64,000 nucleotides of DNA, taken from positions 84,638-148,637 of the forward strand of contig JAQUQW010000003.1 of NCBI GenBank assembly GCA_028716245.1, read 5' to 3'. The notes below the pieces were generated by a model. It had not been told where the DNA came from and searched no databases. It was given only the letters and a program-made list of their open reading frames with translations. The position numbers and the translations under genes were made by a program. This document shows positions 19,663 to 46,005 of the stretch, in pieces; position 1 is the stretch's first letter; each line of letters starts with the position of its first letter. The stretch is from Candidatus Omnitrophota bacterium. Its GTDB lineage: Bacteria > Omnitrophota > Gorgyraeia > Gygaellales > Profunditerraquicolaceae.

Positions 19663-19663
19663 C

Positions 19664-20512: not shown

Positions 20513-20520
20513 TTTTTATT

Positions 20521-22697: not shown

Positions 22698-22707
22698 CTT
22701 AATACTC

Positions 22708-22756
22708 CTTGCCCACACGGGCACACCCGCATAATTCCTTATAAGCGCGGAGTGTT
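22708..22756 (-). promoter_or_regulatory. Conserved leader/operator element (copy B) upstream of the SBP-permease-GH transcription unit
   Basis: cttgcccacacgggcacacccgcataattccttataagcgcggag. It aligns 39/45 with copy A, with the same TGCCC-N4-GGGCA palindrome immediately 5' of the RBS. Confidence 0.5.
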
Positions 22757-22860
22757 CTGTTTTTGGTGGGAGATTTATTCCCTAGGAATAGATCATAAAA
22801 AGACATAATACAAAAATTTAACATATTTTAGCCAACAAATCAAGTTCTTTATTGGCTAAA

Positions 22861-23652: not shown

Positions 23653-26600
23653 TCAGTCGCCGATTACGGCCGTTTTAACTGCTTCAAGATTAGTTACTGC
23701 GGGTAAGACGGGCGCGGTTGATACTGTTGAAGGAAGGACACTAAGGGTTTCTTTAATATCGCTAATAATCCGATTGAGCCGCTCCGGAGAATTTGTATTA
23801 AAAATTGCCTCGGCAATAAGCTTAAGATTTGCTGAAGCCGGATAGCTATTGTTACTGGGCTGTGCTAGAAAATCTTTGGTCTCTTTTACAATACTTTTAT
23901 TCTCTTCAATCAAATTCAGCGTAAGTATTTCTTCTATTTCTTTAAGCCCATATTTATTGGCTAATTTTGTTATTGCTTCTTTAGAAAAAGAATAATATAA
24001 TTTATTTTTAAGATTATCCAATTTGCCCAATCCTATATCCTCAATTATAAGTTTCGCGATCAACTCCGGCACGGTTTTATTAAGTTCTTTTGCAAATTTA
24101 GAAATTGCCGGCTGAGCGACCAATCTTTCATCAATAATTCCAATAATATTCTCTATCTTCTTTTCATCAATCCCGTCTACTTTTGCCTGTTTATAGAACT
24201 CCATTTTTGCTTTCTCAACAGTAAAGTCGATTTTTAAATCGGCCGTATCCATATTAATCACCTGAGCCAACCATGCCTTGAACAACGCCGGATTACCCGC
24301 GGTTTCTTTAACAAGCTTTAGGATAATCTCTTTGCCATATCCGCTATTAAAGAGCTTGTTCAAGTCGCCATTTTTGAAATTTTCGGCATTTAACCAATTT
24401 CTGATTTGCCCCTCGGATGCGGCAAGAATATCCGTTTCTTTTATCGAAACCTCTTTTATAAGATTATTCAGCGCCCCGGTTCCGCCGACTGACTCAATAT
24501 TTAAAAGGTATTCAAACAAATCGGATTTTATTTCCTTTACCTGCGCATCCTTAAGCTGAGAATATTGCGGCAGGTCGGTTAATTGTAGATTTTCCACGTC
24601 TTTGGACTTAATAAAAATATTTTGTTCTTCAAGCGCTTCTAATACTTGGGGTTTTAATATTGGGTTATTTATTAAAGACCACATATTCAATATTATGTAG
24701 GGAGCGGGAATATCTTTGCCATCCTCTAAAATCTTGTTTAAAACATCCTCTTCCTTGGCTAGAATACTCAATTTATCCGGCAGATCCGTTGAAAAATTAT
24801 TTGGATCATTTAATTGCCCGAGCAAAACATCCTGCTTGATCCTTAACTGGTCTCTGGCTATTTTAAGGAACTGATAAGGATTGGCCGATCCTCTCATTAT
24901 CTGCTCTTCAAAATTTGCCAAGAATTCCAGGAAGCGCTTACCGCGCAAGGTAAGCTCATCCTGTGTTCCTCTTACGCGTCCGTCAAATACCAGGCCCAGG
25001 GACTTAAGGGCTTCAACCGGTTGGCTTAGCCCTCTTTGAGATAAATATTTCTCTAATTGCGCAGCCGTGGCGATGTCTCCTTGCGCAATTACCCCCGCGC
25101 GCTGCCTAATCTTTTTTAAATATTCCGACTGTAAGTATTCGATATCTTTATCGGTAACTTCCGCCTGATGCCGGCTGACATCAACCAATTTTCCCGCCTC
25201 CTGCCGCAGCCGGCTTACCCCCTGCGCGTCCTGCTCTTTGTTTATCTTCTCGGATATCGCCAATACAGCTTCCTTCTTAGCTTCAGGAGAGGAAATTTTG
25301 CCTAACTCTTCTTTTTCTTTTGTGGTAATTAATCTATCTTTTCTTTCATTTACTATAACCGAAAAAGTTCCTTCGGCGCGGTTAGCTTTATTTATGCGGC
25401 CGCTAAGCTGAGTAAGCTTATCCTTAGAATCCACTCCCACCTTAATCAACGCCACTTTGTATTTGCCGTTAGGCGCGTTAAAAGTATTGACGCCCGCGCC
25501 CATACCCTGGATAATCAATATCGGCTTCTTTGACGGGTCAACTTTATTATTCTCCCTTATCTCCTCGAATTTTCTTCCCTGCAACTCGCGATTCTCCCCG
25601 GTTACAAATTCTATTTCACTGCGCGGGATAATGCCGTCATCCATTGCCTTAAGTATCCCCGCGCGCACCTCCTCCAATTTAGACGCGCTGATATCGGTAA
25701 CCGCAACCTGGGAAACTTCTTTACTTTTTATAAGCTCCACGACGTGTTTTACAGCCGCCGCCACATCAGGCAAATCCGTTGATATTACGTCTAATTTATT
25801 GATTCCATTATCCCAATCCACTTTTTCTTCCGGCGTAACTCTTACCGTGCTGACTCCCATTTCATTTAAAGTCTTGCCCTGTCCCTCAGTGGTAGCAGAG
25901 CCGAAAATTGCCTTATCTATCCCTATTTTCTTCAACAGCTCAGTGGTGGTAATACGGTCTGTAGGTTTATGTAATAAATTATCCGCCACCTGCTCATCGG
26001 TTGCGCCTTCTTTTAACGCGATAAGCCCGGCTACTTCCTGGCTGCCAAACCTGGTATTCGGCCGCTCTGTGCCGTCGCTATCGGCGATACGGTAATCCAC
26101 GTATTTGCCTTCTTTATCGCTGGTTATCCAATAATGTTTGCCTTTTTCTTTATTAAATAGCGTATCCGCGGCTAAATCTATAAGATTTGAAAACTCCTCT
26201 TTAGCCCGGCCATAACCCAAATCTTTCAATAAATCTTTATGGCTGATAGAGATACTCTCAATAATTTTTCCTCTGCTTGCCGGCTTTAACTGGTATTCCG
26301 AGCGAACCTCATGTCCGCTTAAAAGAGAACGGGTTTTGGTTATGCCTTCGATCCCATTATCATGCAAGCCCGCCTCCTTGTTGATTTCTTCATTAATCAC
26401 CCTGAGAAGTTTTACTTCTTTCATTACCAAACTCTTTGCGTTTTCATCGGTAAGCTTGGAATAAATACCTTCGCGCGGGCCTTTAATCAAATCCGCATCC
26501 ACTAAAACAAGCTGGATTTCATTGACGATTACGCCGGTTACGCCTTCTAAAATTTTCTTTTGTCGCGCACTTGCTCCCTTTTCATCCAAACCAATGCTCT

Positions 26601-28929
26601 TAGCGTCATAATTCTCCATAAGATAAATTTGGGGTTTCTGCGGCTTAAATTGACCTATCAAGACGGGCGCGTGCGCATCCTCTATTTTAAAAACGTTGCA
26701 GTCCTTTGCTAACCTTTCCACCGTAGGGTTATCTTTAAGCTGCTCTAAATTTTTGGAATCGGGGTCGATGTAAATATTTTTAATTTTGGATTCTTGATTA
26801 GCGTTTATCTTTTGGGTTATATCCAAAGCCACCTTTATTCCGCTTAGATAACCATCCATCTTCCCGCCGCTCATTTCCAGCCCCACTGCCAGGCCTTTGG
26901 TAGGCATTTCCAAATTTGATTGGGCAAGATGGACTGCTACGCTATATGTAAATGCCAGCTGGTCCGGACGGATATTAAAATTCCTGTTTTTAACAAGGCC
27001 GGCAAATTCACGCGCCACTAAATTATCTATGGTTATATCCTTGCCTACCTTACCTGCTAATATATTTTTTGTTTCCTCCGCTATTCTTTTGCCGATCGCG
27101 TTTAAATTATCTACGGTTAAAACCTCAAGTTTTATGCCAGCCAACTCGTTCCTTAAATTATCTCCTACGCCCTTTAAATTATCATCGCCGTGGATGCGCG
27201 GTAATTCAAATGGGTTTACTTCGATAGAAGAAGGCAGGGGGACGGTTTTTATATTTTCCGGAGCGGAACCTCCGGCTGTGCCGCCTGTATTTATACCTGA
27301 AAAATCGACAGGAGTAAGTTTATTTTTTACAATACCCGGCCCAAACATATTCACCGCCATCACCGCTGTTGCGCTAGCCGCTGTCCCCAAATTGCCGGTT
27401 TTTCCGCCCTCCCATAAAGCAGCCGCGGCCAATGGCAGAGTTACTACAGCCATAGTTACCGGCGCCTTATATTTTTCATACGCGGGCGGTAATGACAATA
27501 AGCTAAACTGCGTTTTAGCTGACTTTACCCCGCGCAAGGCTTCTCCGCTGCCGCCGCGCAGGATAAATAAACTACCGGCTGCCTCACCTAAGTTACGGTA
27601 ACCGGAATCGTAATCCCATCTGCCGTCAACAATTGAACCGCGGCGCAACCCTACGCCTGCTTCAAGAGGATTAGCTACAAAATCCGCAAAACCGCGCCAG
27701 CTATAACTCGGACTTGCGCCCGCGTTGGCGCCAATAGATAAACCGGTAAGCGGGCTAAAAGACCCTACGCTCTTTATAAATGCTCCGGCAAACGGAACGC
27801 CATAATTATCCAATCCTTTACTAATCGGAACAACCAGAGAATCGCTAATACCAGCCAAACCGGTAAAACCTTTTTCATACCAATTAAAACCATTGGTTAA
27901 ATTTTGGTTCTGAACATTAAGACTGGCTATTTCAGTCGCATCTGCCACTACCCGCTCATTAGTCTTAATCTTTCTCTCTTCTAAATAATTCTTAACTCCC
28001 TGCGGTGTAGCGGCTACCTCAGATAGGCCGCTGAGCATATCATCATTATATTTTCCCGGCGCAAGCAAATGCTCCTCTTGCCTGATTTCGTTCATCAGGT
28101 AACCGATTCTCCCGTTATTGTCGGCAAAAGTATTATAGGCAGGGGATTTAAGCGGAGAAAGACCATAGACTGTATTGACCAAAACCCCTGCGCCGGCAAG
28201 GCCGATATAGCTTCTTACGGCAGGATTCCCCCAAATCATATTGCTACCTTGCCAGGCATAATTAAGCCCTTGCGCTACCCGGCCGCTCCGTAATGCCCAA
28301 GAGCCGCTGTCTATTGCTAAAGAAGGCACGTATCTGGAAACCCCAGTGGTTAATAAATCGCCGGCGCTTGAAAGTACTCCTTCAGCTGCTCCACCCGGGA
28401 GGGTTATAAATGCAAAATACTGACTAAGAAACTCCTTATGCTCTCTGCCTTCGGGAGTATCCCAAAATCCCGGCTTAAATATGGTTTGGTCTATTGCCCA
28501 GTTTGCCTTATCGTAAATAGCATTTTTTATTCCGGGGAGCTGGTTAGATATTGTTTTAGTCCAATTGGTATTAGCTACTGCGATTCCCGCTTGGGGATTA
28601 TTGGTCAGTACACCAGTAACCAAGCCAGCAGTAGATTTAATGCCCTGGATATTGATATTACTAAAAGGAGAAGTAAAATTTGTTGTAGAAATGCCAGTTA
28701 CAGACTTAACTGTGTTGTAGACATTGCTTGCGGCAGTATAGGTGCTGCTGGCTTTGGAAACATAAGATTGGGCGGTAGAACTAATGCTGGATAGGCTGGA
28801 TTGAACGCTTGATTTGAGGCTGGATACGCTGGGAAGACGAGATGTAATTTCATCGGTGATACCAACGGCTAAGCATACCTGCTGCGACAGAAAAATCGCT
28901 ATTATTAATAAAGCAACTGCCTTTTTCAT
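23653..28929 (-). CDS. Giant secreted protein (1758 aa), S/T-rich N-terminal region, no recognisable catalytic domain
   Basis: It has the signal peptide MKKAVALLIIAIFLSQQVCLA and a Ser/Thr-rich low-complexity stretch (SVSSLKSSVQSSLSSISSTAQS...), then a G/A-rich and long K/E-rich helical C-terminal half. It starts 22 nt after the upstream giant gene. Confidence 0.6.
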   Translation of the reverse strand: MKKAVALLIIAIFLSQQVCLAVGITDEITSRLPSVSSLKSSVQSSLSSISSTAQSYVSKASSTYTAASNVYNTVKSVTGISTTNFTSPFSNINIQGIKSTAGLVTGVLTNNPQAGIAVANTNWTKTISNQLPGIKNAIYDKANWAIDQTIFKPGFWDTPEGREHKEFLSQYFAFITLPGGAAEGVLSSAGDLLTTGVSRYVPSLAIDSGSWALRSGRVAQGLNYAWQGSNMIWGNPAVRSYIGLAGAGVLVNTVYGLSPLKSPAYNTFADNNGRIGYLMNEIRQEEHLLAPGKYNDDMLSGLSEVAATPQGVKNYLEERKIKTNERVVADATEIASLNVQNQNLTNGFNWYEKGFTGLAGISDSLVVPISKGLDNYGVPFAGAFIKSVGSFSPLTGLSIGANAGASPSYSWRGFADFVANPLEAGVGLRRGSIVDGRWDYDSGYRNLGEAAGSLFILRGGSGEALRGVKSAKTQFSLLSLPPAYEKYKAPVTMAVVTLPLAAAALWEGGKTGNLGTAASATAVMAVNMFGPGIVKNKLTPVDFSGINTGGTAGGSAPENIKTVPLPSSIEVNPFELPRIHGDDNLKGVGDNLRNELAGIKLEVLTVDNLNAIGKRIAEETKNILAGKVGKDITIDNLVAREFAGLVKNRNFNIRPDQLAFTYSVAVHLAQSNLEMPTKGLAVGLEMSGGKMDGYLSGIKVALDITQKINANQESKIKNIYIDPDSKNLEQLKDNPTVERLAKDCNVFKIEDAHAPVLIGQFKPQKPQIYLMENYDAKSIGLDEKGASARQKKILEGVTGVIVNEIQLVLVDADLIKGPREGIYSKLTDENAKSLVMKEVKLLRVINEEINKEAGLHDNGIEGITKTRSLLSGHEVRSEYQLKPASRGKIIESISISHKDLLKDLGYGRAKEEFSNLIDLAADTLFNKEKGKHYWITSDKEGKYVDYRIADSDGTERPNTRFGSQEVAGLIALKEGATDEQVADNLLHKPTDRITTTELLKKIGIDKAIFGSATTEGQGKTLNEMGVSTVRVTPEEKVDWDNGINKLDVISTDLPDVAAAVKHVVELIKSKEVSQVAVTDISASKLEEVRAGILKAMDDGIIPRSEIEFVTGENRELQGRKFEEIRENNKVDPSKKPILIIQGMGAGVNTFNAPNGKYKVALIKVGVDSKDKLTQLSGRINKANRAEGTFSVIVNERKDRLITTKEKEELGKISSPEAKKEAVLAISEKINKEQDAQGVSRLRQEAGKLVDVSRHQAEVTDKDIEYLQSEYLKKIRQRAGVIAQGDIATAAQLEKYLSQRGLSQPVEALKSLGLVFDGRVRGTQDELTLRGKRFLEFLANFEEQIMRGSANPYQFLKIARDQLRIKQDVLLGQLNDPNNFSTDLPDKLSILAKEEDVLNKILEDGKDIPAPYIILNMWSLINNPILKPQVLEALEEQNIFIKSKDVENLQLTDLPQYSQLKDAQVKEIKSDLFEYLLNIESVGGTGALNNLIKEVSIKETDILAASEGQIRNWLNAENFKNGDLNKLFNSGYGKEIILKLVKETAGNPALFKAWLAQVINMDTADLKIDFTVEKAKMEFYKQAKVDGIDEKKIENIIGIIDERLVAQPAISKFAKELNKTVPELIAKLIIEDIGLGKLDNLKNKLYYSFSKEAITKLANKYGLKEIEEILTLNLIEENKSIVKETKDFLAQPSNNSYPASANLKLIAEAIFNTNSPERLNRIISDIKETLSVLPSTVSTAPVLPAVTNLEAVKTAVIGD

Positions 28930-28951: not shown

Positions 28952-31900
28952 TTAATTCCTTGTCATCACTTCACCTGCAGCTGTCTCTACTTTTTCAGCT
29001 TCTTTTTCAACATCTTTGGCTTTCACCCCTGTGCTAATCGCTGCGATGAGATTCTTATCGCTGAGCGTTTCCAGAGACGCCTTATTTACAAGTAGAAAAT
29101 CCCTGACTTTTTTCGCGCTCACCTTTAATCCATTGGCGATATCAATTAGAGCTTGCGCTTTTTTCAATCCAATCATTACTAACAATTCTTTGGCTTGCAT
29201 AACTGCCAGCGCTGAACTGCCGCCTGTTGAGATATAAATCCCCTCGCCGGAGATGCCAAACTGCTCTGCCATTGCTCCGGTATCCGAACCCACTAATCCG
29301 ATATTGGCTTTGTTTTTGGCGGCTTCCAGGCAAGTCTTGCCAACCTCTTTTGAGCCAACCTCAAACTGCGGTATTTCGCTCACGCCTAGCGCGCCATTCC
29401 AAACATTCCATCTTCCGGCAGGAGTCTGAAGAATAATTTTGCTAAACTCTTCAATACTCTGTTTATAAATATCATAGATGAAAAGATTTTTAGCGATTAA
29501 TGTATCTCCTGATTCGGTATCAGCGAATGTACCCTGCTTCAACTGCTCCAGGGTTACATGATAAATCTTGGCGTTTTGGGGAATTTTCTTTAACTCAAGC
29601 CAGGATTTTTCACTGCCTTCAGCCGGTTTGGTTAAATCCATATTCACCACCACAAAATCAGAAGGCAACGCCAATTTGATGTTATATTGCTTAGACAGAT
29701 CAATAATACTCTGGGCTTGTTTAAGATCGTTCTCGCCGACCTTTGCTCCGACCTCGATATTATGCAGTGCTTTTAAGAATGGAGCAACCGGCCCGGTTCC
29801 AATCATTAGGAATCCGCCCTCCTTCATGTTCGGGATGACTTTTTGCAGCATCGGCACCTTCTCGCTGACCTTGGGGCCTCCGCCGATAATAACTCCGTGA
29901 AGATTTTGCAAAGCAAGTTGTAGATTTTTATCCTCATTTTCCATTATCAAGCCAAGGGCGATCTTTTCCACGTAGTTGGCGACTAAATCCAATGATCCGC
30001 CGGTCCTTTCCGCCGCGCCAAAGGCGTCAAAAATAAATACCTCATTATCCACTAAATCCGCCAGCCCCGCGGCAAAAGACGGATCATTTCCTTCTTCTCC
30101 TTCATAGAAACGGCTATCCTCAAGGATATTTATCGCGCCAGGAATGATTCTTTGCTTTAATCCTTTTGCTAACCCCTTAGCCGTTATGCTATTCTCATGA
30201 AACACCGCTTTATAATTGTATCCTTGCGCTTCTAAAGCTTTTTGGATTTCTACGGAAATCGGCCCCATAGAATATGCTTTATCCACTTTCCCGTCGGGCC
30301 TTCCATTATGGCTGATAACTACCACAGTCTTAGCTCCGTTTTCCAAGGGATAAACCATGGTGCGTACGGCTTCAAAGATCTTCTTTGTTGATTTAATTTC
30401 TCCCTTTGCGCCGGAAACATTAAGGTCTACACGTTCAAGGACACTTTTACCTTCAAGCTCTGCCTTACCCCAACTGCTCATATAAGGAACAGTTGCAACT
30501 TCCGTGGTTTTAATTTGTACAGGAGCGGGCGTCAAAATTTCCTTTGCCCTTCTTGCGTCAACCATCCAGGGCGCCCATCTGTGCGCAATCTGGCCAGGTG
30601 CCGCGGATTGATTATCATAGAGGCCTTTGATTATTATGGTTTTCTTGTTATTAAGCACTTGGATCATAAACCCGTCAATAATCGAAACACTAGACCATCC
30701 TACAATAGAGTTGGTATCTAAAGGAGTGCCGGCAACACCGGGTATTCCTTCATAGAACCTGACCATACCATTTGATTTATTTTTTGCAAAGTTCCTCAAC
30801 GCGTCTCTGACTTCTTTTTCAGTAACTTCTTTTTTTAGATTCATCGTGATCGTAAAGGCGCTCCCCGTGATTGCGCCAACCCGTTTAGCCGTAATCGGGA
30901 AATTACCTTCCAATTCCGGGATTATCTTAAACAGGTTCTTGGCCGCTCCGGTAGAAGCTTCCTGGATATCCTGGATTATCGAGAACCCTCTCAAAACATC
31001 CACCGGATCTCTTTCCCTGCCGCTAGGTTCAGGGAAAACAGCGTTAGAAGCGGTCTGCGCATGAACCGTCTCACCAGAACCTGACTCAACGCCAAAAGCT
31101 TCATGCGCAGCGACAATCGCAGAAATCATGGCATTAGAAGTACAAGATAAAGTATCTACTGCCCAGGTATTCGAAGTCACCTTATCTCTGTTAAAAGAAA
31201 ATAATGCTTCCTTGAAAGCAATTTTAGGATTCAAACCCGCTGCCTTAAGCCCGACTTTTATTCCGTCTTTATTCACCGGAGAAGCGCAGGCTACCGGCAA
31301 CCCCATCTGTATGAATTCTTTGATACGCAACGCCTGATAAGTGCCGCCTTTACCGCCTCCTTCATCTTTACCCGGGCCATATTCCGCGACTACATCCGGG
31401 CCGATTCCTAATTGCCTCATTATTCCCACTGCGTCTTTATTGCTTATTTCCGGGCCAAAATAAAGAATGCGCATTTCCGGCCGGCCTGAATTTTTATCTT
31501 CAGGAACAATAATAGTATCTATCTTCTTCCCATCTACATTTACAGGCTCACCGAGATGTAAGCCGGCGACTTGATATCGCGCGAACACTCCGCCGGAATA
31601 AAAATTCTGCCGAACAAATGCCGCAGCATTAAGTTGTTTAGCTCCTTTGAGTGTTTTTATGGCAACGATGTTTTGCCCCGGTTCCCATTCATTTAGCCAT
31701 GAATTAAACGCGCCTTCCGAAAAAATAACCGCGTTGCCGGCGCTGACAAAGATATTTGTCGGTTTCAAAGCAATGGCTAATTTCCTATCCAAGTCATCAT
31801 TCTTGAACAAATCCGCTTTGGCAATGCCTTTTAACGCAGCCAACTGCTCAGCGCTTAAACGATGGACTATCTTTCTTATCCGGCTAAACGTCTCGGTTTC

Positions 31901-33433
31901 AGTAAGGTTAGCCAATTTCCCCAACACAACCACCGCTTCCAGCCTGCTCAACTCTAATTTTTCGGCTTTGGGGAGGCTATTCAATTTCTTTGCTATACCG
32001 TCTAAGATTTCTGCTGATTTGACATCGGAAGCTAAAATTTCCTTGAGTTCCGCCATATTCAAAGAAGCCAATAAGAACTTTGGATTAGTCCGCATAAATT
32101 CAGCTTCTGCTTTTGCTAATGCCTGCTGCCAATCTCCCAAATTAGAATCTTGTTCGGCAATAAACAAAGATGTCCTGGAAGCATCAATTTCTCCTTTATT
32201 TATTGCTTCATAAATTCCTGCCAAGAATTGATCCGGAGGTGTTTTATCCTTATTGTCAAATGCTTTTAAATTAACGAAACAAACGTACTTATTATTGTCT
32301 GCTATGGCTGCCCTGCTTACCCCTTTAGCCACAGCAAGAAAACCGGGAACTTTTTTGCCTGAAGAGGCAAATAATACGCCATGGACAAGCGGAACGCCCG
32401 CCATATCCGGCCTATTACTTTTAACCGACATAATCCTATCGATATTCTTGCCGTCTACGCTTGCGCCATAAAGCATTAAAAATGATTTACCCCATATTGA
32501 GTTAACAATATCTTTACCGTATTTTACTTCAAGTAAATTATATATAGCTTGATGGACATCGCGAACCTCATCAGTATCTGCGGCTACATCCTTACCTCCC
32601 GCATCTGCGACCTTTCCGATTTTGTCCGGAGGTTCATTAGCGACATAAAACTTAGTATCTTTTAACCGCTCTGCCGGAATATGATTAAAATAAGCATTTA
32701 ACTGCGCTAAAATCTCCTCTTTGGAACCTCCAACGCAAATGGGTATATCTTTGATTCCGGCATCAAGCAATGCGAGGATACGATGATTTATAACTTCATT
32801 AAATCTTGCTGAAGCGATATTTTTAGCTTCAATTCGAGCCTTATCATTCGCAACAGGAATTTCTGTTAATAGATTTTCCATTGCTTTAGTCATTGTCTTA
32901 ATCCAAGCATCTCTTACTATTAAAGGAACAGTGCCTAATGTCGAATCACCTATTTTCACTGGCCCTACAGCTGAATTAAAACTATTTTCTGCGATTTCTT
33001 TAATCTTGATCTTAGCTAAATCTTTATCAATGCCGCCGGAAATTAAAAGGCGCTCTCCCACTTTAGTTAACTCCTTAATACAATCTTCCCTTGTTGCCGA
33101 ATGTCCTAAAAGAGCACCTGCAAGTTTTCTCTCTAATAATTGACTTAAGAGTATAATTTGACCAACATTTTTCTCTTGCTCCTTAGTAGTCTTACCTCCA
33201 ACTTTAAAATTTTCTGCAAAAATCTTGACGTTAGGTAAAGGCGTTCCACTTAGTTCCCTTTCAATGGAATCTATCATGCCAGAATTACTCTCTACTACCG
33301 GAGCGCGCAGCTTATCCACAGTACCTAAAGCGGCATAGCTTCTCACCGGAACACTGGTAATAATAAAACTTACCACGGCGAGGCCGGAAATTAATTTTGA
33401 AAACAATGATTTCTTAGGAAACTGTGCGAACAT
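28952..33433 (-). CDS. Giant secreted multi-domain protein (1493 aa) containing TPI-like, GAPDH-like and PGK-like domains in series
   Basis: The signal peptide is MFAQFPKKSLFSKLISGLAVVSFIITSVPVRSYA. The TPI-like domain carries VANEPPDKIGKVADAGG...LYGASVDGKNI (cf. AYEPVWAIGTGKTAT...IxYGGSV). The GAPDH-like domain carries LSCTSNAM (cf. SCTTN), TVHAQT (cf. TTVHA.T) and STGAAKNLFKIIPELEGNF...RVGAITGS (cf. STGAAKAV.KVLPEL.GKL.G.A.RVPT). The PGK-like domain carries ISHNGRPDG, LEDSRFYEGEEGNDPSFA (cf. LENLRFH.EEE.ND..FA), IIGGGPKVSEKV, WNVWNGALGVSE (cf. WNGPMGVFE) and ISTGGSSALAV (cf. STGGGASLE). Confidence 0.65.
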   Translation of the reverse strand: MFAQFPKKSLFSKLISGLAVVSFIITSVPVRSYAALGTVDKLRAPVVESNSGMIDSIERELSGTPLPNVKIFAENFKVGGKTTKEQEKNVGQIILLSQLLERKLAGALLGHSATREDCIKELTKVGERLLISGGIDKDLAKIKIKEIAENSFNSAVGPVKIGDSTLGTVPLIVRDAWIKTMTKAMENLLTEIPVANDKARIEAKNIASARFNEVINHRILALLDAGIKDIPICVGGSKEEILAQLNAYFNHIPAERLKDTKFYVANEPPDKIGKVADAGGKDVAADTDEVRDVHQAIYNLLEVKYGKDIVNSIWGKSFLMLYGASVDGKNIDRIMSVKSNRPDMAGVPLVHGVLFASSGKKVPGFLAVAKGVSRAAIADNNKYVCFVNLKAFDNKDKTPPDQFLAGIYEAINKGEIDASRTSLFIAEQDSNLGDWQQALAKAEAEFMRTNPKFLLASLNMAELKEILASDVKSAEILDGIAKKLNSLPKAEKLELSRLEAVVVLGKLANLTETETFSRIRKIVHRLSAEQLAALKGIAKADLFKNDDLDRKLAIALKPTNIFVSAGNAVIFSEGAFNSWLNEWEPGQNIVAIKTLKGAKQLNAAAFVRQNFYSGGVFARYQVAGLHLGEPVNVDGKKIDTIIVPEDKNSGRPEMRILYFGPEISNKDAVGIMRQLGIGPDVVAEYGPGKDEGGGKGGTYQALRIKEFIQMGLPVACASPVNKDGIKVGLKAAGLNPKIAFKEALFSFNRDKVTSNTWAVDTLSCTSNAMISAIVAAHEAFGVESGSGETVHAQTASNAVFPEPSGRERDPVDVLRGFSIIQDIQEASTGAAKNLFKIIPELEGNFPITAKRVGAITGSAFTITMNLKKEVTEKEVRDALRNFAKNKSNGMVRFYEGIPGVAGTPLDTNSIVGWSSVSIIDGFMIQVLNNKKTIIIKGLYDNQSAAPGQIAHRWAPWMVDARRAKEILTPAPVQIKTTEVATVPYMSSWGKAELEGKSVLERVDLNVSGAKGEIKSTKKIFEAVRTMVYPLENGAKTVVVISHNGRPDGKVDKAYSMGPISVEIQKALEAQGYNYKAVFHENSITAKGLAKGLKQRIIPGAINILEDSRFYEGEEGNDPSFAAGLADLVDNEVFIFDAFGAAERTGGSLDLVANYVEKIALGLIMENEDKNLQLALQNLHGVIIGGGPKVSEKVPMLQKVIPNMKEGGFLMIGTGPVAPFLKALHNIEVGAKVGENDLKQAQSIIDLSKQYNIKLALPSDFVVVNMDLTKPAEGSEKSWLELKKIPQNAKIYHVTLEQLKQGTFADTESGDTLIAKNLFIYDIYKQSIEEFSKIILQTPAGRWNVWNGALGVSEIPQFEVGSKEVGKTCLEAAKNKANIGLVGSDTGAMAEQFGISGEGIYISTGGSSALAVMQAKELLVMIGLKKAQALIDIANGLKVSAKKVRDFLLVNKASLETLSDKNLIAAISTGVKAKDVEKEAEKVETAAGEVMTRN
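29110..30460 (-). other. Phosphoglycerate-kinase-like domain inside the 1493-aa protein
   Basis: VDLNVSGAKGEIKST..VYPLENGAKTVVVISHNGRPDG ... LEDSRFYEGEEGNDP ... FIFDAFGAAERTGGSL ... IIGGGPKVSEKV ... FLMIGTGPVAPFL ... WNVWNGALGVSE ... YISTGGSSA: full-length match to both PGK lobes. Confidence 0.65.
30640..31630 (-). other. Glyceraldehyde-3-phosphate-dehydrogenase-like domain inside the 1493-aa protein
   Basis: FYSGGVFARYQVAG...VNVDGKKIDTIIVPEDKNSGRPEM..GIGPDVVAEYGPG (cf. KYDSVHGRF.G.V...V.GK.I.V..ERDP..L.W...GVDIV.E.TG). The catalytic Cys (LSCTSNAM) and His (TVHAQT) are both present. Confidence 0.6.
32350..32980 (-). other. Triosephosphate-isomerase-like domain inside the 1493-aa protein
   Basis: FYVANEPPDKIGKVADAGGKDVAADTDEVRDVHQAIYNLL...MLYGASVDGKNI aligns with the TPI catalytic-Glu loop (EPVWAIGTG), the His-containing region and IxYGGSV. 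The Glu is retained (ANEPP). Confidence 0.5.
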
Positions 33434-33453
33434 TTTTCTTCCTCCTTATAAAA

Positions 33454-36400
33454 TTAATTTTTACCGCTTACTGCGTTCTCTTCTATCTTTTGCTTCTCAG
33501 CTGCATCATTAATTTCTTTGGTTTCTTTCACTAGTGGCGCGAAAGAAACTATTATTTTTTTATTTTGATCGTCATTCTTATTTATATCTTCCATCTTTCC
33601 TTTAACGATTTTGATGGCGACATCGCCGATCTCTTGTAATTCTCCTTCTTTAGCCAATCTTCTCCACTCTTTCCAGTAGATATCGACGCCTGCCCAAGCT
33701 GCTCCCAACATTATTTTGTCAAAAGTTACAAAATTTAAACCCGTTCCAAGATCTTTGAAATATTCGAAATATTTATCCACAGCCAGTGTATCGCTAGGCG
33801 TAGCAATATTAACACCCAGCTGTAAGCCGTCTTCGCCGGGAATAATACCCATATCTTTCAAGATATATTTCCAAGCAATAATTACCGCGCCGCTCTGAGT
33901 TCCTTTAAGTTCGGTAATTTGTAAACCAAAATCCTTTCTTTCTTTGACAGGCAATGCCGCTCTTACTTCTTTAAATGCCTCTAACTCAAGGCGGTTGATC
34001 TCCCAAAAATCGCCAATCGCCCTGGCTGCTCCTAATAAACCATAGTCAGGGTTAGGATTAACCTGTTCCACCAAGAAACCGAAATTCATATTCCTAAATA
34101 CCAGGCAATTCAAACTTGTTGTCTTATGCACCACAAATTGCCCTTTATTTTTCTCTATAATTTCTTGCATCTGCTGCTTAAACGAATCCTTTATGAATTC
34201 CTTAGCGGATTTTCCGTTAAGGCGGCTGACAATTCTCTTCCTCATGTCCGCGAAATATCTATTCCTTAATTCTTCCAGCCAATTTTTAGATAACGCTGCT
34301 CCATCATTACGGGTTATTTTATCAAGTTTATCCTGTAAAAATTCTTTTATGATTTTCTCAGGTTCTTTTTTAATCTTTTCCTGTATTTCGTTAATTAAAC
34401 TCAGTTTCTTATCCTGGTATTTCTCTTTTGCGATTTTATCCAGCTCATCGATTAATTTCCCCACATATTCGTCAAATACTTTTCCTAAAGAATCTTCTAA
34501 AGTTTTACCTTTTATCTGTTCATTTTCAAACGCCAACAGAACTAACGGGTTAAACTCAATCTTCGAATAAACGCTATTCGCATTTTCTTCAACGGCCTGT
34601 TTTGTATCTATTTGCGGGTCATACTGCGGTATTGGCAAGGAGCGGACAATTGCTTTTTTCTTTTCAACCTTAAGATTACCTTTATAAATCTTCTTGGCTG
34701 CGTAGTCAATCGTGACAAATTGCCCTTCTAATTGCGGGCGCATCGCGCCTATACCCTTGGCAATAGCTTTTATTCTTGTAGGTACGATACCCTTGTCGCG
34801 GCGAAACACATCCCAGCCATCCAGATTTACGTCGCCATCGACAATAATTGCCTTCGCGTATTGCAAATCATCCCAATCAATGCCCCTTCTTTCAAGCCCT
34901 TCAATGGTATTGTCCCAGCATTTCTGCCAAATAGCCATTATTTTAGTCCGCTCATCATCACTGAATCTTCTATCTTTTAATTGAGCGGAAAATTTCTTAG
35001 CGTGCACGTTAAGATTGGTCCATACGTAAAGATTATTTCCTATAGGCTTAAGCAACCCCTCTCGTTTAAACTGTTCAAAATATGCCGGGGTCATCGCTTT
35101 CACTAATTCATCTTCAGAAATAGCGACAAGGTTTCGGTTTAAAACAACGACCTTATTATATGTTTTCATTGTGCTGCGCGCGCTCTCTAAGCTTTGTAAC
35201 TTTAAGAATTCTCTTTTCTCTTCTAACTCCGCGCCTTCCAACCCTTTTAACGCATCGGGCAATAAATCTTCCGCTTTCTCTACGTAAATCACTTCGCCTT
35301 TAATAACTCCTGTGCGTTGTTTAACTTCCCCTGCGTTTAGATCAAACAATACCTCTTTTTCCGATTCAGGCGCGATGATTTCTTTTGTTGCCGACATTGT
35401 ATCGAGCCGGGTCATCGATGCCAAAAGCCGGACCGACATCATGCTTATGCCAAAAGAATCCAATAAATTCATAATCTTTCCGGCAGAATCATAATCCCCT
35501 CTTCCCACTAAACTGGTAACCGATTCTCCGCAAAGGTTTATTCGGATACCTAGCTCTTTCGCTTCCTTTACTACCGCCTCCATTAACTGAATCATTACAT
35601 CCGCACCTTCGTCAATTAAAGGCAACTTCTTAATGCTATCATTATAGAAAAATCCCGCCTCTTTAATCGCGTTAATCGCTTTAATAGCCGCAGGGTCAAG
35701 AAGCTCCAGCTTCATCCGCGGATCTTCTCTGTCGCCTTTACCGGCAAGATGAGAATAATCGTTTGTTCCAAAAGAAAAAAAGGTAAGTTCCACCCCGTAT
35801 TTTTTGTATTTTTCCCTCATTGCCAGCAATTTCTTACCGAGTTTATCCGCCAGTATAGCGTCACTGGGAACTTCAATCATAATACCGATCTGTTTAGGCA
35901 GCTTTCCTTTTCTAGCCGCTATTCTCTCAAGAGCGATATCTAACATGTCCAATTCCCTGACGAATCGTATAAAAACATAAAACCAGGCTTGGTTATGGGT
36001 GTTCTGGTTAGCATCAATAACCGAGTCCAACAAAAAGCTCAACACCTTCTGATTACCATCAAAATCCTCATCTATTCCCTCAATTTCCAGAGAGGCGCCT
36101 CTTAAGCCCACTAATGGATTGACACCGGGCCAGGAAAATATTTCAGAGCCGGGCATCCCCCTAATTTTATCCTGCGCGAAGTCATAGGCCCTGTTCTTTG
36201 CTTTCTGATCCGGACTAACACTAAATCCCATTAAGTTATAGAAAGTACGAAATTCTGTCCCGACGTATTTCCCAAATGACGAATACCCTTTTTCTACCAA
36301 CTTGTTTTCTATCTCTTTAAGAATCCAAGGGCTCTTGTTTAATTGAGAAATAATATTATAATCAAAATTAAATCTTCTTTGCATAGCGCCGTATTGATCT

Positions 36401-39400
36401 GTTAACGCTGACACTATACCGGGTATTTTCATGGAATAATCTAATAAACGCAGTTGCTCCCTGTTTAGCGGGGAATCTTGCTCTCGTAATTTCATAAGAT
36501 CGAAAATACTTAACAATTTTATGCCGTCTTCAATCTTATATTCCCTGCTAAATTGCTCTTTAAAGCCATTTAAAATCTCCGGCTTATCCTTATAATATTT
36601 AAAAATTTCATTATTTACTTTAGAAACAAATTTTTCAGAGCCTTCAATCTTTCCTTCAATTAACTGCTCTACGGTTACCAGCTCCGGCATTTTTGAACGG
36701 CCCGCTTTAATATTCTGAATAAGATCGTAGCCGTAACCCGCGAATACATTCAAACCTAATTGCTCCGCTTTAAATTCAGCGCGGGTTAATGCATTACCCG
36801 CGTCATCTTCAGCCAGCATAATCGGCGCATTCTGTTGAGCGGTCGAATCCGAAGCAATAATCTGGCCGATTGAGGGATATGGCATTCCATCGTCATCTCC
36901 CGGGATACCGTATGGCTTAATCCTGAATTTTACGAAATTGACCGGGATTCTCTTTGCTGGATCAGGTTCAAGTTTGTATAGAAGACCATTATTGGCGTCT
37001 ACAGTTAAACCATCTCCCGTAGCCACAAGCCTTTCCTCAAGTGTAAACTTACCCACCCCTGTTACAGCCGGAATACCCTGCTCTCTGCAGAAAATTGCCG
37101 CGTGGCAGGTATCTCCTCCTCTAATAGTAATTACCGCGTCCACCAGCCGCATAATCGGATCATGGTTCGGATCCGCTTCTAACAAATATAACGCTATCGG
37201 CAAAACCTTATCTTTACCTATACCGAATTCATCGGGATTAAATCCCAGTTTCTTTATCTGCCTCTTTTCTTCATCGCTAAACTGTCCTGCCTTTAATCTT
37301 CTTATTGTCTCAGCATGCCAATCAATGGTTTTATTTGGGTCAAATACCAGCACATACGCTTCGGTCGCATTTTCGCCTTTTGTACCGCTGGTAATAGCTT
37401 TTATATTATTATCCTCAATAAATTTCTCGTCCACTTCACTTCTTTGCCGGACAACATCGGTTTTTTGAATAGCGGCGGTATAAGGACGCGCCTGCACGTT
37501 ATAGAGTTTTAAAACAACTTTTCCTCCCCTAGCTGTATCTTCAACTTTTACCAGTTTGCCGTCTTTTTGCATTTTAAGGCGAGCGCCATCCACATCGGCA
37601 GTATATGCTTCGAGCCGGCCTTCCTGGCCTTTAGGCACAGAAGGGTCTATCTCAACCGCGAACTCAATATCTCTCTGGTCTTTATAAAAATTTGCAATGT
37701 TCCATGCCATATGGGCAATCTCAATTGCTTCCTCATCGTTAATACTAAATGAGTCCTGATGAGTAGGCGTGGTTTCCAAATTACAGGTAAAGCTATTATC
37801 TACCAGCGCCCTTATGAGATAACTTAAGTTCCTCATTTCTTTAGCTTCTAACCCCAATTTTTTTAATACGTCGCCTCTATGCACTAAATCGAATTCCTTA
37901 TTTTCCCACACCTCTTTTGTCATCAGTATAAACGCTTCGGCTGTTTCTATGCTATTGCCAAAAAACTCATGCAAACTACTCATCCCGGCTTTTGCCTCAT
38001 TGCTGGCGTTTTCAACCGAAGCAAAAACTTCTTGTATTAATTTATTAACTGCCGATTCCTTTAGTCCATTCTTTTCATTATTAGGAGAAACATGGAAATT
38101 CTGCTTGATATATTCTTGTACCGCGCCTATTGAACTATTCGCCTTGATCATATTCGCTATATCTGTGGCGATTTTTTGTACTCGCGCTTTTTTATCTTTC
38201 TCGGTTTCTGTTTTATCCGGTAATTCGTTTAAATACCGTGTCCCGTATAAATTTGTGACCAAAATGCCGTTTATCCTTTTGTCAACCTCATCGTAACTAA
38301 TTGCTTTTTCCACCATACCTGCCAATGACCGTATCTTATCCTGGCTTAGTTTGCTTTTTAAGAGGTCGATCGATTTTTCAATGTTAATCATCTGAATAAG
38401 CTTAGTGCCCTTATGCCTTTCTAAGAAAAACCAGTTTATGCCGTCATAAGTAGCCATAACAAATTTATCCGGATCGACTTTCCCTCCAACTACATTTTCT
38501 CCATAACCATAAGCGATTTCAAAGCTGACTACTATCGGCTTTGTGCCGACTATATTGCCTTCTTTATCTAACTGCACCAGGCTTTTGTCGCCTTTCCAGG
38601 CCTTATATAATGCCTGTGAAACACCCGCCATCTTGGTCGCCGGGTTAACCGAAAAAATTACACCGGCCAAATAACTCCTAACCATTTGCATAATCACAAC
38701 GTCGATTCCGATCTCTTCAGGATGGATAAATTCCAAAGCGATTTTTTGCATCGTTTCCAAACTGTGTCTTATCTCGGGATTGTTTTCATATTTTAAAATC
38801 TCTTCCATCGCATTCATTAAATTTACCGAACCGGGATTGCGGTAATTAGTTAAAGTTTCGGCATAGTCGGTAAATTCCGGCTTGTTCAATCTTACAGCGT
38901 ATTCGCGGAGCTTATTGATTAAATCATAATATACGCGCTTGGGCTGCTTGCCTTCAAATTCGATTGCGCTGGAAAAAATCAAAAATATAGCATCATCTCT
39001 ATAGCTTACTGCCCTATCTGTAAAAAGGCTGGCCCAATCAGCTTTCAGTTTATCAAGCACATTTTTTTCACCGCTGACATTAAGAAAAGTATCGGATTGG
39101 CCTGCCTGGGAACCAGTAGTAATCGGAAGCCAAGACGAGACCTTGATATCTTCTTTTATACCCGAGCTTCTCACCGCAACTCTTGCGGGGATGTCTTTTT
39201 TCGCCAGAACGCGCAGGACATTCAACTGGCGATACATTACTAATACCTCGTTTTTGATATCATCCGGAATCGAAGAACGTTTCATGACTTCTCGGATTTT
39301 TCTAGTTATTGCGTCCCTTTTCTGGTCATCCATCGTATCTAATACTTTTAATTCTTCTTTGATTAAGTCATACAGTTCAGGGTTTGCTTTCACAAATTTA

Positions 39401-40301: not shown

Positions 40302-40327
40302 GTAACCGGGGACGGGAAATTCCCGTC
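40302..40327. terminator. GC-rich hairpin ggggacggg-aaatt-cccgtcccc followed by ATTTTT (between the 1279-aa and 2267-aa giant genes)
   Basis: It shares the ccggggacg arm start with the nrdJ terminator palindrome at 7476. It has plus-oriented terminator geometry although the flanking genes are on the minus strand, so it may act bidirectionally or as an mRNA-processing/attenuation hairpin. Confidence 0.4.
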
Positions 40328-45977: not shown

Positions 45978-46005
45978 AGTATACAATATTTAAAAGCCTT
46001 GTCAA
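45978..46005 (-). promoter_or_regulatory. Candidate sigma70 promoter (TTGACA-N16-TATACT, minus strand) for the TraB-like/giant-protein operon
   Basis: -35 is the revcomp of 46000-46005 and -10 the revcomp of 45978-45983. It predicts a ~180-nt leader containing the 45826-45902 palindrome. Confidence 0.35.

What the first reader, a model, noticed from the sequence alone, without database searches (positions are those of the whole stretch)
28952..33433. Single 1493-aa polypeptide carrying TPI-like, GAPDH-like and PGK-like domains behind a secretory leader
Three consecutive lower-glycolysis / Calvin-cycle enzymes are fused N-to-C in metabolic order: TPI at ~32350-32980, GAPDH at ~30640-31630 and PGK at ~29110-30460. 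PGK-TPI fusions are known in Thermotoga, but a TPI-GAPDH-PGK triple fusion with a ~150-aa helical N-terminal extension and a cleavable-looking signal peptide (..VPVRSYA/AL) is not a described architecture. The GAPDH Cys and His and the TPI Glu are conserved.
Basis: partly seen in the sequence, partly recalled or inferred. Interest (0 to 1): 0.9.

Follow-up and report, generated by a model that had tools for sequence, protein, structure and literature searches.

The report
Leader-bearing TPI–GAPDH–PGK fusion, Omnitrophota
One 1493-residue protein of an uncultured Omnitrophota bacterium fuses three consecutive sugar-breakdown enzymes behind an export-type leader, and it is one piece of a conserved locus that stands where related predatory bacteria carry a single giant gene.

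Summary
ORF 28952-33433 (-) encodes 1493 aa with TPI-like, GAPDH-like and PGK modules behind one N-terminal hydrophobic leader. It is identical to NCBI MDD5477844.1 ("phosphoglycerate kinase", Candidatus Omnitrophica MAG) and recurs in an independent assembly.

Corrections:
- The "150-aa helical extension" is part of the TPI barrel, which appears circularly permuted (canonical strands β3-β8, then β1-β2). Asn388, Lys390, His111 and Glu267 are kept.
- The GAPDH module keeps Cys764 and His791, but its dinucleotide fingerprint is degenerate (SAGNAVIF).
- PGK is nearly canonical (Arg38→Lys, two Gly→Ser).

Context changes the reading. The gene lies in an apparent operon with FBA/FBPase and PPDK fusions that carry the same leader and a (D/E)NLRP motif. 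Upstream is a 5868-aa SecA-bearing ORF; downstream are pilZ, a sugar ABC importer and a GH2-like gene. Published work finds this same downstream synteny after Omnitrophota giant "Archaeovorin" genes, which contain TPI, FBA, FBPase and PPDK domains.

In related loci the same modules are shuffled among three or four leader-bearing ORFs.

Best reading: an active, exported or membrane-tethered triose-phosphate module of a split giant-gene locus. Localisation and role are inferred. Verdict: new variant of a known kind; interest 0.6.

The parts
28952..33433 (-). g1493: 1493-aa ORF (NCBI MDD5477844.1), leader + permuted TPI-like + linker + GAPDH-like + PGK + tail
33441..33447 (-). Shine-Dalgarno-like AAGGAGG in the 20-nt spacer after g2267
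   Evidence: read directly from the sequence
33332..33433 (-). Leader aa 1-34: 13-aa basic n-region (MFAQFPKKSLFSK), 17 uncharged residues, Arg31, then SYA|A
   Evidence: No signal-peptide predictor was available.
33299..33316 (-). DKLRAP, the local form of the family motif (D/E)NLRP just after the predicted cleavage site
32093..33238 (-). TPI-like (beta/alpha)8 barrel aa ~66-447, circularly permuted (canonical b3-b8, then b1-b2). Key residues: His111, Glu267, Tyr322-Gly-Ala-Ser, Asn388, Lys390.
32792..33082 (-). Variable helical insert aa ~118-214 between barrel strands 2 and 3 (pLDDT 47-89; 47-68 over aa 130-198). It is as short as ~20 aa in relatives.
31772..32092 (-). Helical linker aa 448-554, conserved in P0002, P0003 and P0022; no known family
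30554..31771 (-). GAPDH-like two-domain module aa ~555-960. Kept: Cys764, His791, STGAAK at 827, Arg851, Asn941. Degenerate GxGxxG (SAGNAVIF at 564); Lys593 in place of Asn31 and Thr594 in place of Asp32.
29174..30481 (-). PGK module aa ~985-1420. Kept: Asp1003, Asn1005, His1042, Arg1045, Arg1108, Arg1143, Lys1188, Lys1192, Asn1346, Glu1353, Asp1384. Changed: Arg38 equivalent is Lys1018; Gly->Ser at 1383 and 1406.
28955..29173 (-). C-terminal tail aa 1421-1493. It is a junction module conserved after PGK in relatives, but the ~250-330-aa C-terminal domain of orthologues P0002 and P0003 is missing.
33454..40257 (-). g2267: PPDK/PEP-synthase-type fusion (PPDK_N, PEP-utilizers, PEP-utilizers_C) with the same leader from Met15 (probable true start at nt 40215)
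40349..44188 (-). g1279: class II FBP-aldolase-like + GlpX-type FBPase-like fusion. Same kind of leader from Met11 (probable start nt 44158). Its C-terminal 240 aa is homologous to the C-terminus of P0002.
44193..45788 (-). g531: first ORF of the apparent operon, signal-like N-terminus, conserved in related loci, function unknown
45978..46005 (-). Best sigma-70-like site (TTGACA-16-TATACT, 11 of 12) in the 548-bp gap upstream of g531
   Evidence: a consensus match only
46337..63943 (-). g5868: 5868-aa ORF with a protein kinase domain, Peptidase_M48, several TM segments and a SecA-type motor (DEAD, PPXD, NBD2; no wing/scaffold)
23653..28929 (-). g1758: last large ORF of the block, signal-like N-terminus, no detectable family
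17362..23556 (-). Conserved downstream block: PilZ (22861-23556), sugar-binding protein (21399-22724), two ABC permeases (20521-21399 and 19664-20512), GH2-like/TPR protein (17362-19662)

Best explanation
g1493 is a three-enzyme module: circularly permuted TPI, then a GAPDH-like dehydrogenase, then PGK. It most likely catalyses DHAP <-> glyceraldehyde-3-P <-> 1,3-bisphosphoglycerate <-> 3-phosphoglycerate on one chain. It belongs to a conserved Omnitrophota locus in which glycolytic and gluconeogenic enzymes are fused into three or four large polypeptides. Here these are g1279 (FBA/FBPase), g2267 (PPDK) and g1493. Each starts with the same conserved signal-type leader followed by a (D/E)NLRP motif. 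The block from g5868 to g1758 (13,196 aa in six ORFs) lies between a SecA-bearing giant ORF and pilZ / sugar ABC importer / glycoside hydrolase genes. Other Omnitrophota carry one giant 'Archaeovorin' gene at that position, so this is the multi-ORF form of that system. Shown: the architecture, the folds, conservation of catalytic residues, the synteny and the module shuffling. Inferred: the leader sends or tethers the enzymes to the outer face of the cytoplasmic membrane (periplasm, or the predator-prey interface), possibly with help from the SecA-like motor of g5868. There they would process phosphorylated C3/C6 intermediates, for example from lysed prey, alongside the adjacent sugar-uptake system.
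Against: No signal-peptide predictor was available, and no experiment bears on localisation. GAPDH, PGK and PPDK need NAD(P), ADP/ATP and AMP/PPi, which are not expected in a periplasm. The adjacent ABC importer delivers sugars to the cytoplasm, which would fit a cytoplasmic pathway. The leader is far more conserved than ordinary Sec signals. It has a Tat-like register, but KK replaces RR in g1493. The GAPDH dinucleotide site is degenerate and poorly modelled. g1493 has Arg38->Lys and two Gly->Ser changes in PGK, and a degenerate TPI lid (PPDKIGKV versus PAGNIGTG in relatives). The C-terminal b-a-b-a of the barrel alone finds no TPI by sequence. I could not check whether the genome also has canonical tpiA, gap and pgk. 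A preprint reports strict-threshold GAPDH and PGK hits in 176 of 176 complete Omnitrophota genomes, which suggests that it does, but this is indirect.
Confidence: 0.5

Rival explanations
1. It is a cytoplasmic, membrane-tethered glycolytic metabolon. The hydrophobic N-terminus is an uncleaved anchor or is not used for export. The fused enzymes sit on the inner face of the membrane next to the sugar ABC importer and form the organism's main route for imported sugar.
For: The locus is always next to a sugar-binding protein, ABC permeases and a GH2-like gene, with LacI- and ROK-family genes further down. All cofactors needed are cytoplasmic. Catalytic residues are under strong constraint. The 2026 preprint reads 46% of Omnitrophota long proteins as membrane-anchored with their bulk in the cytoplasm.
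Against: In g1493 and P0004 the n-region carries more positive charge than the residues after the hydrophobic stretch, which predicts N-in/C-out by the positive-inside rule. The h-regions are 17-20 uncharged residues in most leaders and Ala/Gly/Ser-rich in several members (for example IFCLTLAAGSAAAVAYA), so they look like signal peptides rather than anchors. An AxA site is conserved. The modules are very divergent for housekeeping enzymes: the TPI domain finds no canonical TPI among 1.84 billion representative proteins, and the GAPDH module scores 83 bits against a TIGR01534 cut-off of 367. Strict-threshold GAPDH and PGK hits are reported in all 176 complete Omnitrophota genomes.
Confidence: 0.3
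2. The modules are non-catalytic or moonlighting. They act as binding or scaffold units (adhesin-like, as surface GAPDH, enolase and PGK do in many bacteria) on the cell surface of a predatory ultramicrobacterium.
For: Departures from the canonical enzymes: degenerate GAPDH GxGxxG and loss of Asp32; TPI Glu97->Thr and a degenerate lid in g1493; PGK Arg38->Lys and Gly->Ser. The published context is giant surface proteins thought to attach to prey.
Against: The residues that are invariant across sequences 40-55% identical are the catalytic and phosphate-binding ones: TPI Asn, Lys, His, Glu and YG.S; GAPDH Cys, His, Thr, STGA, Arg and YDN; PGK His, Arg, Lys, Asn, Glu and Asp. The set of pathway steps is kept while the fusion order changes. 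Selection on catalysis explains this better than selection on binding.
Confidence: 0.12
3. It is an artefact: a chimeric or frameshift-joined ORF created by metagenome assembly, or three adjacent genes read as one.
For: The source is a MAG, and giant-gene loci are prone to assembly errors.
Against: The identical 1493-aa product is on an independent Logan assembly. P0003, from another sample, has the same module order, and the truncated P0002 has the same GAPDH-PGK order. Conserved linkers join the modules. GC content is even across the ORF.
Confidence: 0.01

Closest known systems
Omnitrophota giant 'Archaeovorin'-type genes and multi-enzyme metabolic giant proteins (West-Roberts et al., bioRxiv 10.1101/2023.11.21.568195; bioRxiv 10.64898/2026.06.07.730766)
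   Same: Same phylum. Same downstream synteny (pilZ, solute-binding protein, ABC permeases, glycoside hydrolase). A SecA-like motor without wing/scaffold in the neighbouring giant ORF. Shared content of TPI, FBA, FBPase and PPDK domains. The enzyme domains are predicted to lie outside the cytoplasm.
   Different: Here the modules are separate ORFs of 1.3-2.3 kaa, each with its own leader and no further TM helices, rather than one protein of 30-147 kaa with dozens of TM helices. PGK and GAPDH modules, the permuted TPI barrel, the shared leader/NLRP motif and the module shuffling are not mentioned in those texts.
Stramenopile TPI-GAPDH fusion proteins with a mitochondrial presequence (PMC3527533, PMC6198282)
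   Same: TPI and GAPDH are fused N-to-C in the same order behind an N-terminal targeting peptide. The payoff phase of glycolysis is relocated to another compartment.
   Different: Those are eukaryotic, carry two modules rather than three, have a canonical TPI topology, and import into mitochondria has been shown. Here the protein is bacterial, PGK is added, TPI is permuted and localisation is untested. Independent origin is likely, but I did not test it phylogenetically.
Thermotoga-type bifunctional PGK-TPI (NCBIfam NF010569)
   Same: PGK and TPI lie on one polypeptide. The best NCBIfam hit of g1493 is this model (E 1.3e-58).
   Different: The order is opposite (PGK then TPI), there is no GAPDH and no leader, and TPI is canonical. 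The score of 198.7 bits is far below the cut-off of 883, and the match covers only the PGK part.
Accessory Sec (SecA2) export of substrates with unusual conserved leaders
   Same: A second, divergent SecA-type motor is encoded next to large substrates that share an atypically conserved N-terminal leader.
   Different: This is an analogy only. No SecY2 or Asp genes were seen, the motor is embedded in a 5868-aa protein, and nothing was tested.

Membership tests
Triosephosphate isomerase (PF00121) | (beta/alpha)8 barrel closest to TPI structures | tested here: met
   AlphaFold gives mean pLDDT 83.5 and 8 strands. All 50 listed Foldseek PDB hits are TPI, probability 1.0, 144-181 columns at 2-3.6 A.
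Triosephosphate isomerase (PF00121) | Catalytic Asn10, Lys12, His95, Glu165 and the YGGS and phosphate loops | tested here: met
   Asn388, Lys390, His111, Glu267, YGAS at 322 and GVLFASSGK at 352. All lie at strand C-termini and are invariant in 14 of 14 sequences. Glu97 is Thr, and the lid of g1493 is PPDKIGKV.
Triosephosphate isomerase (PF00121) | Collinear full-length match to the family profile (b1 to b8 order) | tested here: not met
   Only profile positions 102-221 of 245 match. The N-terminal segment aligns to TPI residues 59-102. After in-silico permutation, the alignment becomes collinear over chain 37-239. The C-terminal segment alone gives no TPI hit.
Triosephosphate isomerase (PF00121) | DHAP/G3P isomerase activity | not testable with these tools
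   Needs an enzyme assay.
Phosphorylating GAPDH, type I (PF00044 + PF02800, TIGR01534) | Catalytic domain with Cys149, His176, Thr179, Thr208-Gly209, Arg231 and Asn313 | tested here: met
Phosphorylating GAPDH, type I (PF00044 + PF02800, TIGR01534) | N-terminal Rossmann domain with GxGxxG and an acidic residue at position 32 (NAD binding) | tested here: not met
   PF00044 is not detected. NGFGRIG aligns to NIFVSAG and Asn31-Asp32 to Lys-Thr. Relatives have IAGNGLIF. AlphaFold pLDDT is below 35 there. An altered cofactor site, for example for NADP, is not excluded.
Phosphorylating GAPDH, type I (PF00044 + PF02800, TIGR01534) | Score above the curated equivalog cut-off | tested here: not met
   83 bits against a cut-off of 367.2.
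Phosphoglycerate kinase (PF00162) | Full-length two-domain match above the gathering score | tested here: met
   Profile 4-379 of 379, 214.5 bits against a cut-off of 27. E 3.6e-40 to 1PHP in two collinear stretches.
Phosphoglycerate kinase (PF00162) | 3-PG basic patch and catalytic/nucleotide residues (Arg38, His62, Arg65, Arg122, Arg170, Lys215, Lys219, Asn336, Glu343, GGGD, STGGG) | tested here: inconclusive
   All are kept except Arg38->Lys1018, GGGD->VGSD and STGGG->STGGS. These three changes are specific to the g1493/P0002/P0003 subgroup.
Thermotoga-type bifunctional PGK/TPI (NF010569) | PGK-then-TPI order and score above the cut-off | tested here: not met
   The order is reversed, and the score is 198.7 against 883 bits.
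Omnitrophota Archaeovorin-type giant protein | Single ORF of 30,000 aa or more with many TM helices and a SecA-like domain | tested here: not met
   g1493 has 1493 aa and one hydrophobic segment. The SecA-like domain is in neighbouring g5868, which has 5868 aa.
Omnitrophota Archaeovorin-type giant-gene locus | Followed by pilZ, solute-binding protein, ABC permeases and GH; contains TPI, FBA, FBPase and PPDK domains | tested here: met
   Window synteny, compared with the published description. The same order is found in most of the related loci L001-L015, as far as each locus reaches.
Sec-type cleavable signal peptide | Basic n-region, hydrophobic h-region, small residues at -3 and -1 | tested here: inconclusive
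   The features are present by inspection: three Lys in the n-region, 17 uncharged residues, and Ser and Ala at -3 and -1 (SYA|A). No trained predictor or experiment was available.
Tat signal peptide | Twin arginine in an S/T-R-R-x-F-L-K motif | tested here: not met
   g1493 has P-K-K-S-L-F-S-K. RR occurs in 5 of 24 related leaders, and a basic residue sits just before the AxA triplet in 8 of 24.

The most novel reading that the evidence does not exclude
The lower half of glycolysis/gluconeogenesis (here FBA/FBPase, TPI-GAPDH-PGK and PPDK; enolase, PFK and GPI in relatives) is exported as a few fused polypeptides. It would work outside the cytoplasm of a predatory ultramicrobacterium, in an enlarged periplasm or at or inside the prey. 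This would be a bacterial counterpart of compartmentalised glycolysis, using a dedicated leader/NLRP sorting signal and a giant-protein-borne SecA motor. It would also contain the first natural circularly permuted triosephosphate isomerase.
Probability: 0.3. Interest if true: 0.9.

Novelty: new variant of a known kind. Interest (0 to 1): 0.6.

Why it matters
Two preprints report glycolytic domains on the predicted outer face of Omnitrophota giant proteins. Those proteins have 30-147 thousand residues and dozens of membrane helices, so both their topology and their activity are nearly untestable.

This locus offers the same modules as stand-alone proteins of 1.3-2.3 thousand residues, each with one N-terminal leader. 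That makes them practical to express, assay and localise. If they are exported and active, a predatory bacterium would be running energy-yielding or sugar-building steps outside its cytoplasm, which would change how its predation and energy budget are understood.

Independently, a TPI barrel that starts at strand 3 and ends with the strand carrying the catalytic lysine would be a natural experiment in TIM-barrel folding. The movement of one GAPDH module between fusion partners also shows how multi-enzyme polypeptides are assembled.

Tried and rejected
- **TPI region alone against PDB.** A single-sequence phmmer search of the TPI region found nothing relevant; only family profiles worked.
- **C-terminal part of the barrel.** A profile of the C-terminal b-a-b-a alone found no TPI. 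The permutation therefore rests on topology, motif position and a weak collinear hit, not on independent sequence homology of that piece.
- **GAPDH N-domain.** AlphaFold gave pLDDT below 35 for the first 85 residues, so the NAD site could not be judged structurally.
- **AFDB search.** The afdb50 fold library was unavailable, so I could not ask whether similar permuted barrels exist in AFDB.
- **SecA search.** The last homologue search, with the SecA region of g5868, returned almost only canonical SecA (about 37% identity) and two fragments. It gave no synteny information.
- **Species representatives.** The GTDB scan found only 3 loci, and one of them, from Saccharibacteria, is a weak 30% match.
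- **Missing steps.** No enolase, GPI or PFK module is detectable in the window by tblastn with family modules.
- **g1758.** It has no significant Pfam, NCBIfam or PDB hit.
- **Unassigned segments.** The linker, the tail and the family C-terminal domains match no Pfam family.
- **Kizina et al. 2022.** The paper on V. archaeovorus could not be retrieved.
- **Calvin-cycle reading.** Rejected, because nothing in the window supports it.
- **Walking the contig.** The window's own NCBI contig could not be walked to look for canonical glycolytic genes; the contig look-up returned only a 12-kb Logan contig.
Full report
**1. The observation**

The minus strand carries an uninterrupted ORF at 28952-33433: ATG start, 1493 aa. 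It sits 20 nt after the previous ORF, and the spacer contains AAGGAGG.

- Pfam places PGK at aa 991-1415 (whole profile, E 3e-63), the GAPDH catalytic domain at aa 776-894 (E 2.6e-15), and part of TIM at aa 212-338 (profile 102-221 of 245, E 7e-8).
- PDB sequence searches agree for PGK (E 3.6e-40 to 1PHP) and GAPDH (E 1.4e-20).
- A Kyte-Doolittle scan finds a single hydrophobic segment, aa 10-30.
- The protein is identical to NCBI MDD5477844.1, 'MAG: phosphoglycerate kinase [Candidatus Omnitrophica bacterium]', on a 151,874-bp contig. It is also encoded on an independent Logan assembly.
- P0003 (67% identity), from another sample, has the same leader-TPI-GAPDH-PGK order. P0002 (77% identity, N-terminally truncated) has the same GAPDH-PGK order.

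The triple fusion is therefore real and is not an assembly artefact.

**2. The TPI module is larger than reported and appears circularly permuted**

That stretch actually contains two barrel strands.

- *Motifs read from the sequence.* The family motif IFAEN...LLGHSATR matches the canonical b3-b4 stretch gAQN...GHSERR. Further on come ICVGG (b5), ANEPP (b6, Glu267), LYGASV (b7) and GVLFASSGKK (b8). Two extra beta-alpha units follow: CFVNLK and LFIAEQD.
- *Native-order profile.* A profile of 14 family sequences aligns its N-terminal segment to T. maritima TPI residues 59-102 and the next part to residues 99-229.
- *Permuted profile.* When the C-terminal piece is moved to the front in silico, the profile aligns collinearly to TPI chain positions 37-120 and 125-239.
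- *Structure prediction.* AlphaFold on the native sequence gives mean pLDDT 83.5 and pTM 0.78, with eight strands alternating with helices. The strands are aa 69-73, 106-109, 229-235, 261-267, 318-322, 352-355, 383-388 and 421-427.
- *Fold search.* All 50 listed Foldseek hits in the PDB are TPI, aligned over 144-181 columns at 2-3.6 A. A sequential aligner can reach only about that much on a permuted barrel.
- *Position of catalytic residues.* Counting strands from the one carrying His111, Glu267 is at +2, YGAS at +3, the phosphate loop at +4 and Lys390 at +5. This is exactly the canonical spacing b4, b6, b7, b8, b1. N-L-K is invariant in all 14 sequences.

Caveat: the C-terminal b-a-b-a alone does not find TPI by sequence. 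'Permutation' could therefore also mean that b1-b2 were lost and two new units were gained. In g1493 the lid is degenerate (PPDKIGKV against PAGNIGTG in relatives), and Glu97 is Thr.

**3. The GAPDH and PGK modules**

The N-domain is homologous, but its dinucleotide fingerprint is not canonical. NGFGRIG aligns to NIFVSAG, and Asn31-Asp32 aligns to Lys-Thr. PF00044 is not detected. The TIGR01534 score is 83 bits against a cut-off of 367. AlphaFold is unconfident there, with pLDDT below 35.

Relatives carry IAGNGLIF. Cofactor use is therefore open: a changed specificity such as NADP is possible, but this is only an inference.

*PGK.* The equivalents of Asp23, Asn25, His62, Arg65, Arg122, Arg170, Lys215, Lys219, Asn336, Glu343 and Asp374 are all kept. 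Three changes are specific to the g1493/P0002/P0003 subgroup: Arg38->Lys, GGGD->VGSD and STGGG->STGGS.

**4. The family**

A scan of 1.84 billion representative proteins with the TPI-like domain finds only 20 clusters at E <= 1e-3, and no canonical TPI. Only two or three species-representative genomes carry it.

All relatives are multi-enzyme fusions:
- TIM-PGK-enolase;
- cupin-GPI-TIM-PGK-enolase;
- TIM, archaeal-type GAPDH, PGK;
- TIM-PGK followed much later by a GAPDH-like module.

The loci are strongly syntenic. The order is a g531-like ORF, an FBA/(PFK or FBPase)/GAPDH fusion, a PPDK fusion, a TIM-PGK-x fusion, sometimes an unknown ORF, then PilZ, a sugar-binding protein, two ABC permeases and a GH2/TPR protein.

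The divergent GAPDH module of g1493 is about 50% identical over 410 aa to a module in the five other loci whose upstream region was fetched. There it lies in the ORF upstream of PPDK, after the FBA or FBA/PFK part. Only this lineage has it between TPI and PGK.

Pathway steps stay clustered while the fusion order changes, and the invariant columns are the catalytic ones. Both facts argue for active enzymes. In this window no enolase, GPI or PFK module is detectable.

**5. The leader**

g1279, g2267 (from Met15; a Logan gene call of 2253 aa agrees) and g1493 share an N-terminus. g2267 and g1493 are 37.5% identical over 72 aa.

Across about 24 ORFs of four enzyme classes the pattern is as follows:
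- a fixed 13-aa n-region, M-x-x-x-F-S-[RK][RK]-x-L-x-x-K;
- 17-20 uncharged residues in most leaders;
- a basic residue just before the AxA triplet in 8 of 24;
- an AxA site (AYA, GYA or VFA);
- then (D/E)NLRP a few residues into the predicted mature protein.

This is a signal-peptide layout. In g1493 and P0004 the charge balance predicts N-in/C-out.

Its register resembles the Tat motif S-R-R-x-F-L-K. RR occurs in 5 of 24 leaders, but g1493 has KK. No predictor was available, so the route (Sec, Tat or other), cleavage and the role of NLRP are all inferred or unexplained.

**6. The locus**

The ORF upstream, g5868, carries a protein kinase domain, an M48 peptidase, several TM segments and a SecA-type motor without wing/scaffold. 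The motor is about 37% identical to canonical SecA.

West-Roberts et al. (bioRxiv 2023) describe Omnitrophota giant genes with several matching features:
- such SecA-like domains lie after C-terminal TM anchors;
- the genes are followed by pilZ, solute-binding proteins, ABC transporters and glycoside hydrolases;
- they contain TPI, GPI, FBPase, PGM, FBA and PPDK domains predicted to be extracellular.

A 2026 preprint reports SecA-DEAD giant proteins and 'multi-enzyme metabolic' giants whose enzyme content is predicted periplasmic or extracellular. Neither text mentions PGK, GAPDH or a permuted barrel.

The window block g5868-g531-g1279-g2267-g1493-g1758 (13,196 aa) occupies exactly the position of such a giant gene. 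It is best read as the multi-ORF form of that system. The best sigma-70-like site on this strand lies in the 548-bp gap upstream of g531.

**7. Mechanism**

*Shown:* the architecture, the folds, conservation of catalytic residues, the shared leader, the synteny and the module shuffling.

*Inferred:* the protein interconverts DHAP, glyceraldehyde-3-P, 1,3-bisphosphoglycerate and 3-PG on one chain. It is exported or tethered to the outer face of the inner membrane together with the FBA/FBPase and PPDK fusions, perhaps with the help of the g5868 SecA motor. There it would process phosphorylated intermediates, for example from lysed prey, next to a sugar-uptake system.

The main rival is a cytoplasmic, membrane-tethered metabolon for imported sugar. 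It is favoured by cofactor needs and by the adjacent importer. It is disfavoured by the leader's features, by the extreme divergence of the modules, and by the reported presence of strict-threshold GAPDH and PGK hits in all 176 complete Omnitrophota genomes. I could not examine the rest of this genome.

**8. Comparison and verdict**

The closest known system is the Archaeovorin-type giant-gene locus. The locus features are met, but the single-giant-ORF definition is not.

The closest architectural analogues are the stramenopile TPI-GAPDH fusions with mitochondrial presequences and the Thermotoga PGK-TPI fusion, which has the opposite order and whose cut-off is not met.

I rate this a new variant of a known kind. 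The triple fusion, the permuted TPI, the shared leader/NLRP motif and the mobile GAPDH module were not found in the literature I could search. The general phenomenon, glycolytic domains in apparently exported Omnitrophota mega-proteins, is already reported at preprint level.

Interest: 0.6.

Noticed in passing
window 46337-63943 (-): g5868 is a 5868-aa ORF. It combines a Ser/Thr-type protein kinase domain (aa ~1118-1278), a Peptidase_M48 domain (aa ~3340-3500), TM segments (aa ~554-598, 3426, 5209-5256, 5838-5868) and a SecA motor (aa ~5040-5624, about 37% identical to canonical SecA, without wing/scaffold or SEC-C). It looks like a small member of the SecA-bearing giant proteins described for Omnitrophota.
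   Followed up: partly
window 33299-33316, 40150-40215 and 44060-44158 (-); loci L001, L003, L004, L010-L014: A conserved motif, (D/E)NLRP (DKLRAP, DKLRPE or FNLRNN in the window), lies 3-10 residues after the predicted AxA cleavage site of every glycolytic fusion ORF. The 13-aa n-region has a Tat-like register, [ST]-[RK][RK]-x-L-x-x-K (RR in 5 of 24, KK in 11 of 24). No known sorting signal matches it.
   Followed up: partly
window 40349-41080 (-): The C-terminal 240 aa of g1279 is homologous (38% identity, E 7e-40) to the C-terminal domain of P0002, the 77%-identical orthologue of g1493. g1493 itself lacks this domain. Many family members end in a ~200-aa domain terminating in ...EF(M/I)xK(V/I). 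No Pfam family matches either.
   Followed up: partly
window 23653-28929 (-): g1758 is a 1758-aa ORF with a signal-like N-terminus and a Ser/Thr-rich start. It has no significant Pfam, NCBIfam or PDB match. By eye only, aa ~1090-1160 resemble helicase motifs V-VI. Related loci have different, shorter unknown ORFs at this position.
   Followed up: partly
window 40215-40257 (-): The longest-ORF start of g2267 (MHKKSK...) is probably wrong. The conserved leader begins at Met15 (MSAQFSK...), and an independent gene call gives 2253 aa.
   Followed up: yes
window 40307-40331: A perfect palindromic hairpin with an 11-bp stem (9 G-C pairs) lies in the 91-nt spacer between g1279 and g2267. On the coding (minus) strand no T-run follows it, so it is not a canonical terminator. 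It might be an attenuator or a processing site.
   Followed up: no
loci L003 and L004: Two different loci of this type come from the same NCBI assembly, GCA_040961635.1, on different contigs (P0017 on a 358-kb contig, P0009 on a 95-kb contig). Either one genome carries two paralogous loci or the assembly holds more than one organism.
   Followed up: no
window 1013-19662 (-): Downstream of the sugar-uptake genes lie ordinary housekeeping and regulatory genes: GH72-like/TPR proteins, a ROK-family protein, a LacI-type regulator, class II ribonucleotide reductase, MnmG, a 4Fe-4S protein, a PAS histidine kinase with its response regulator, and a porin.
   Followed up: no
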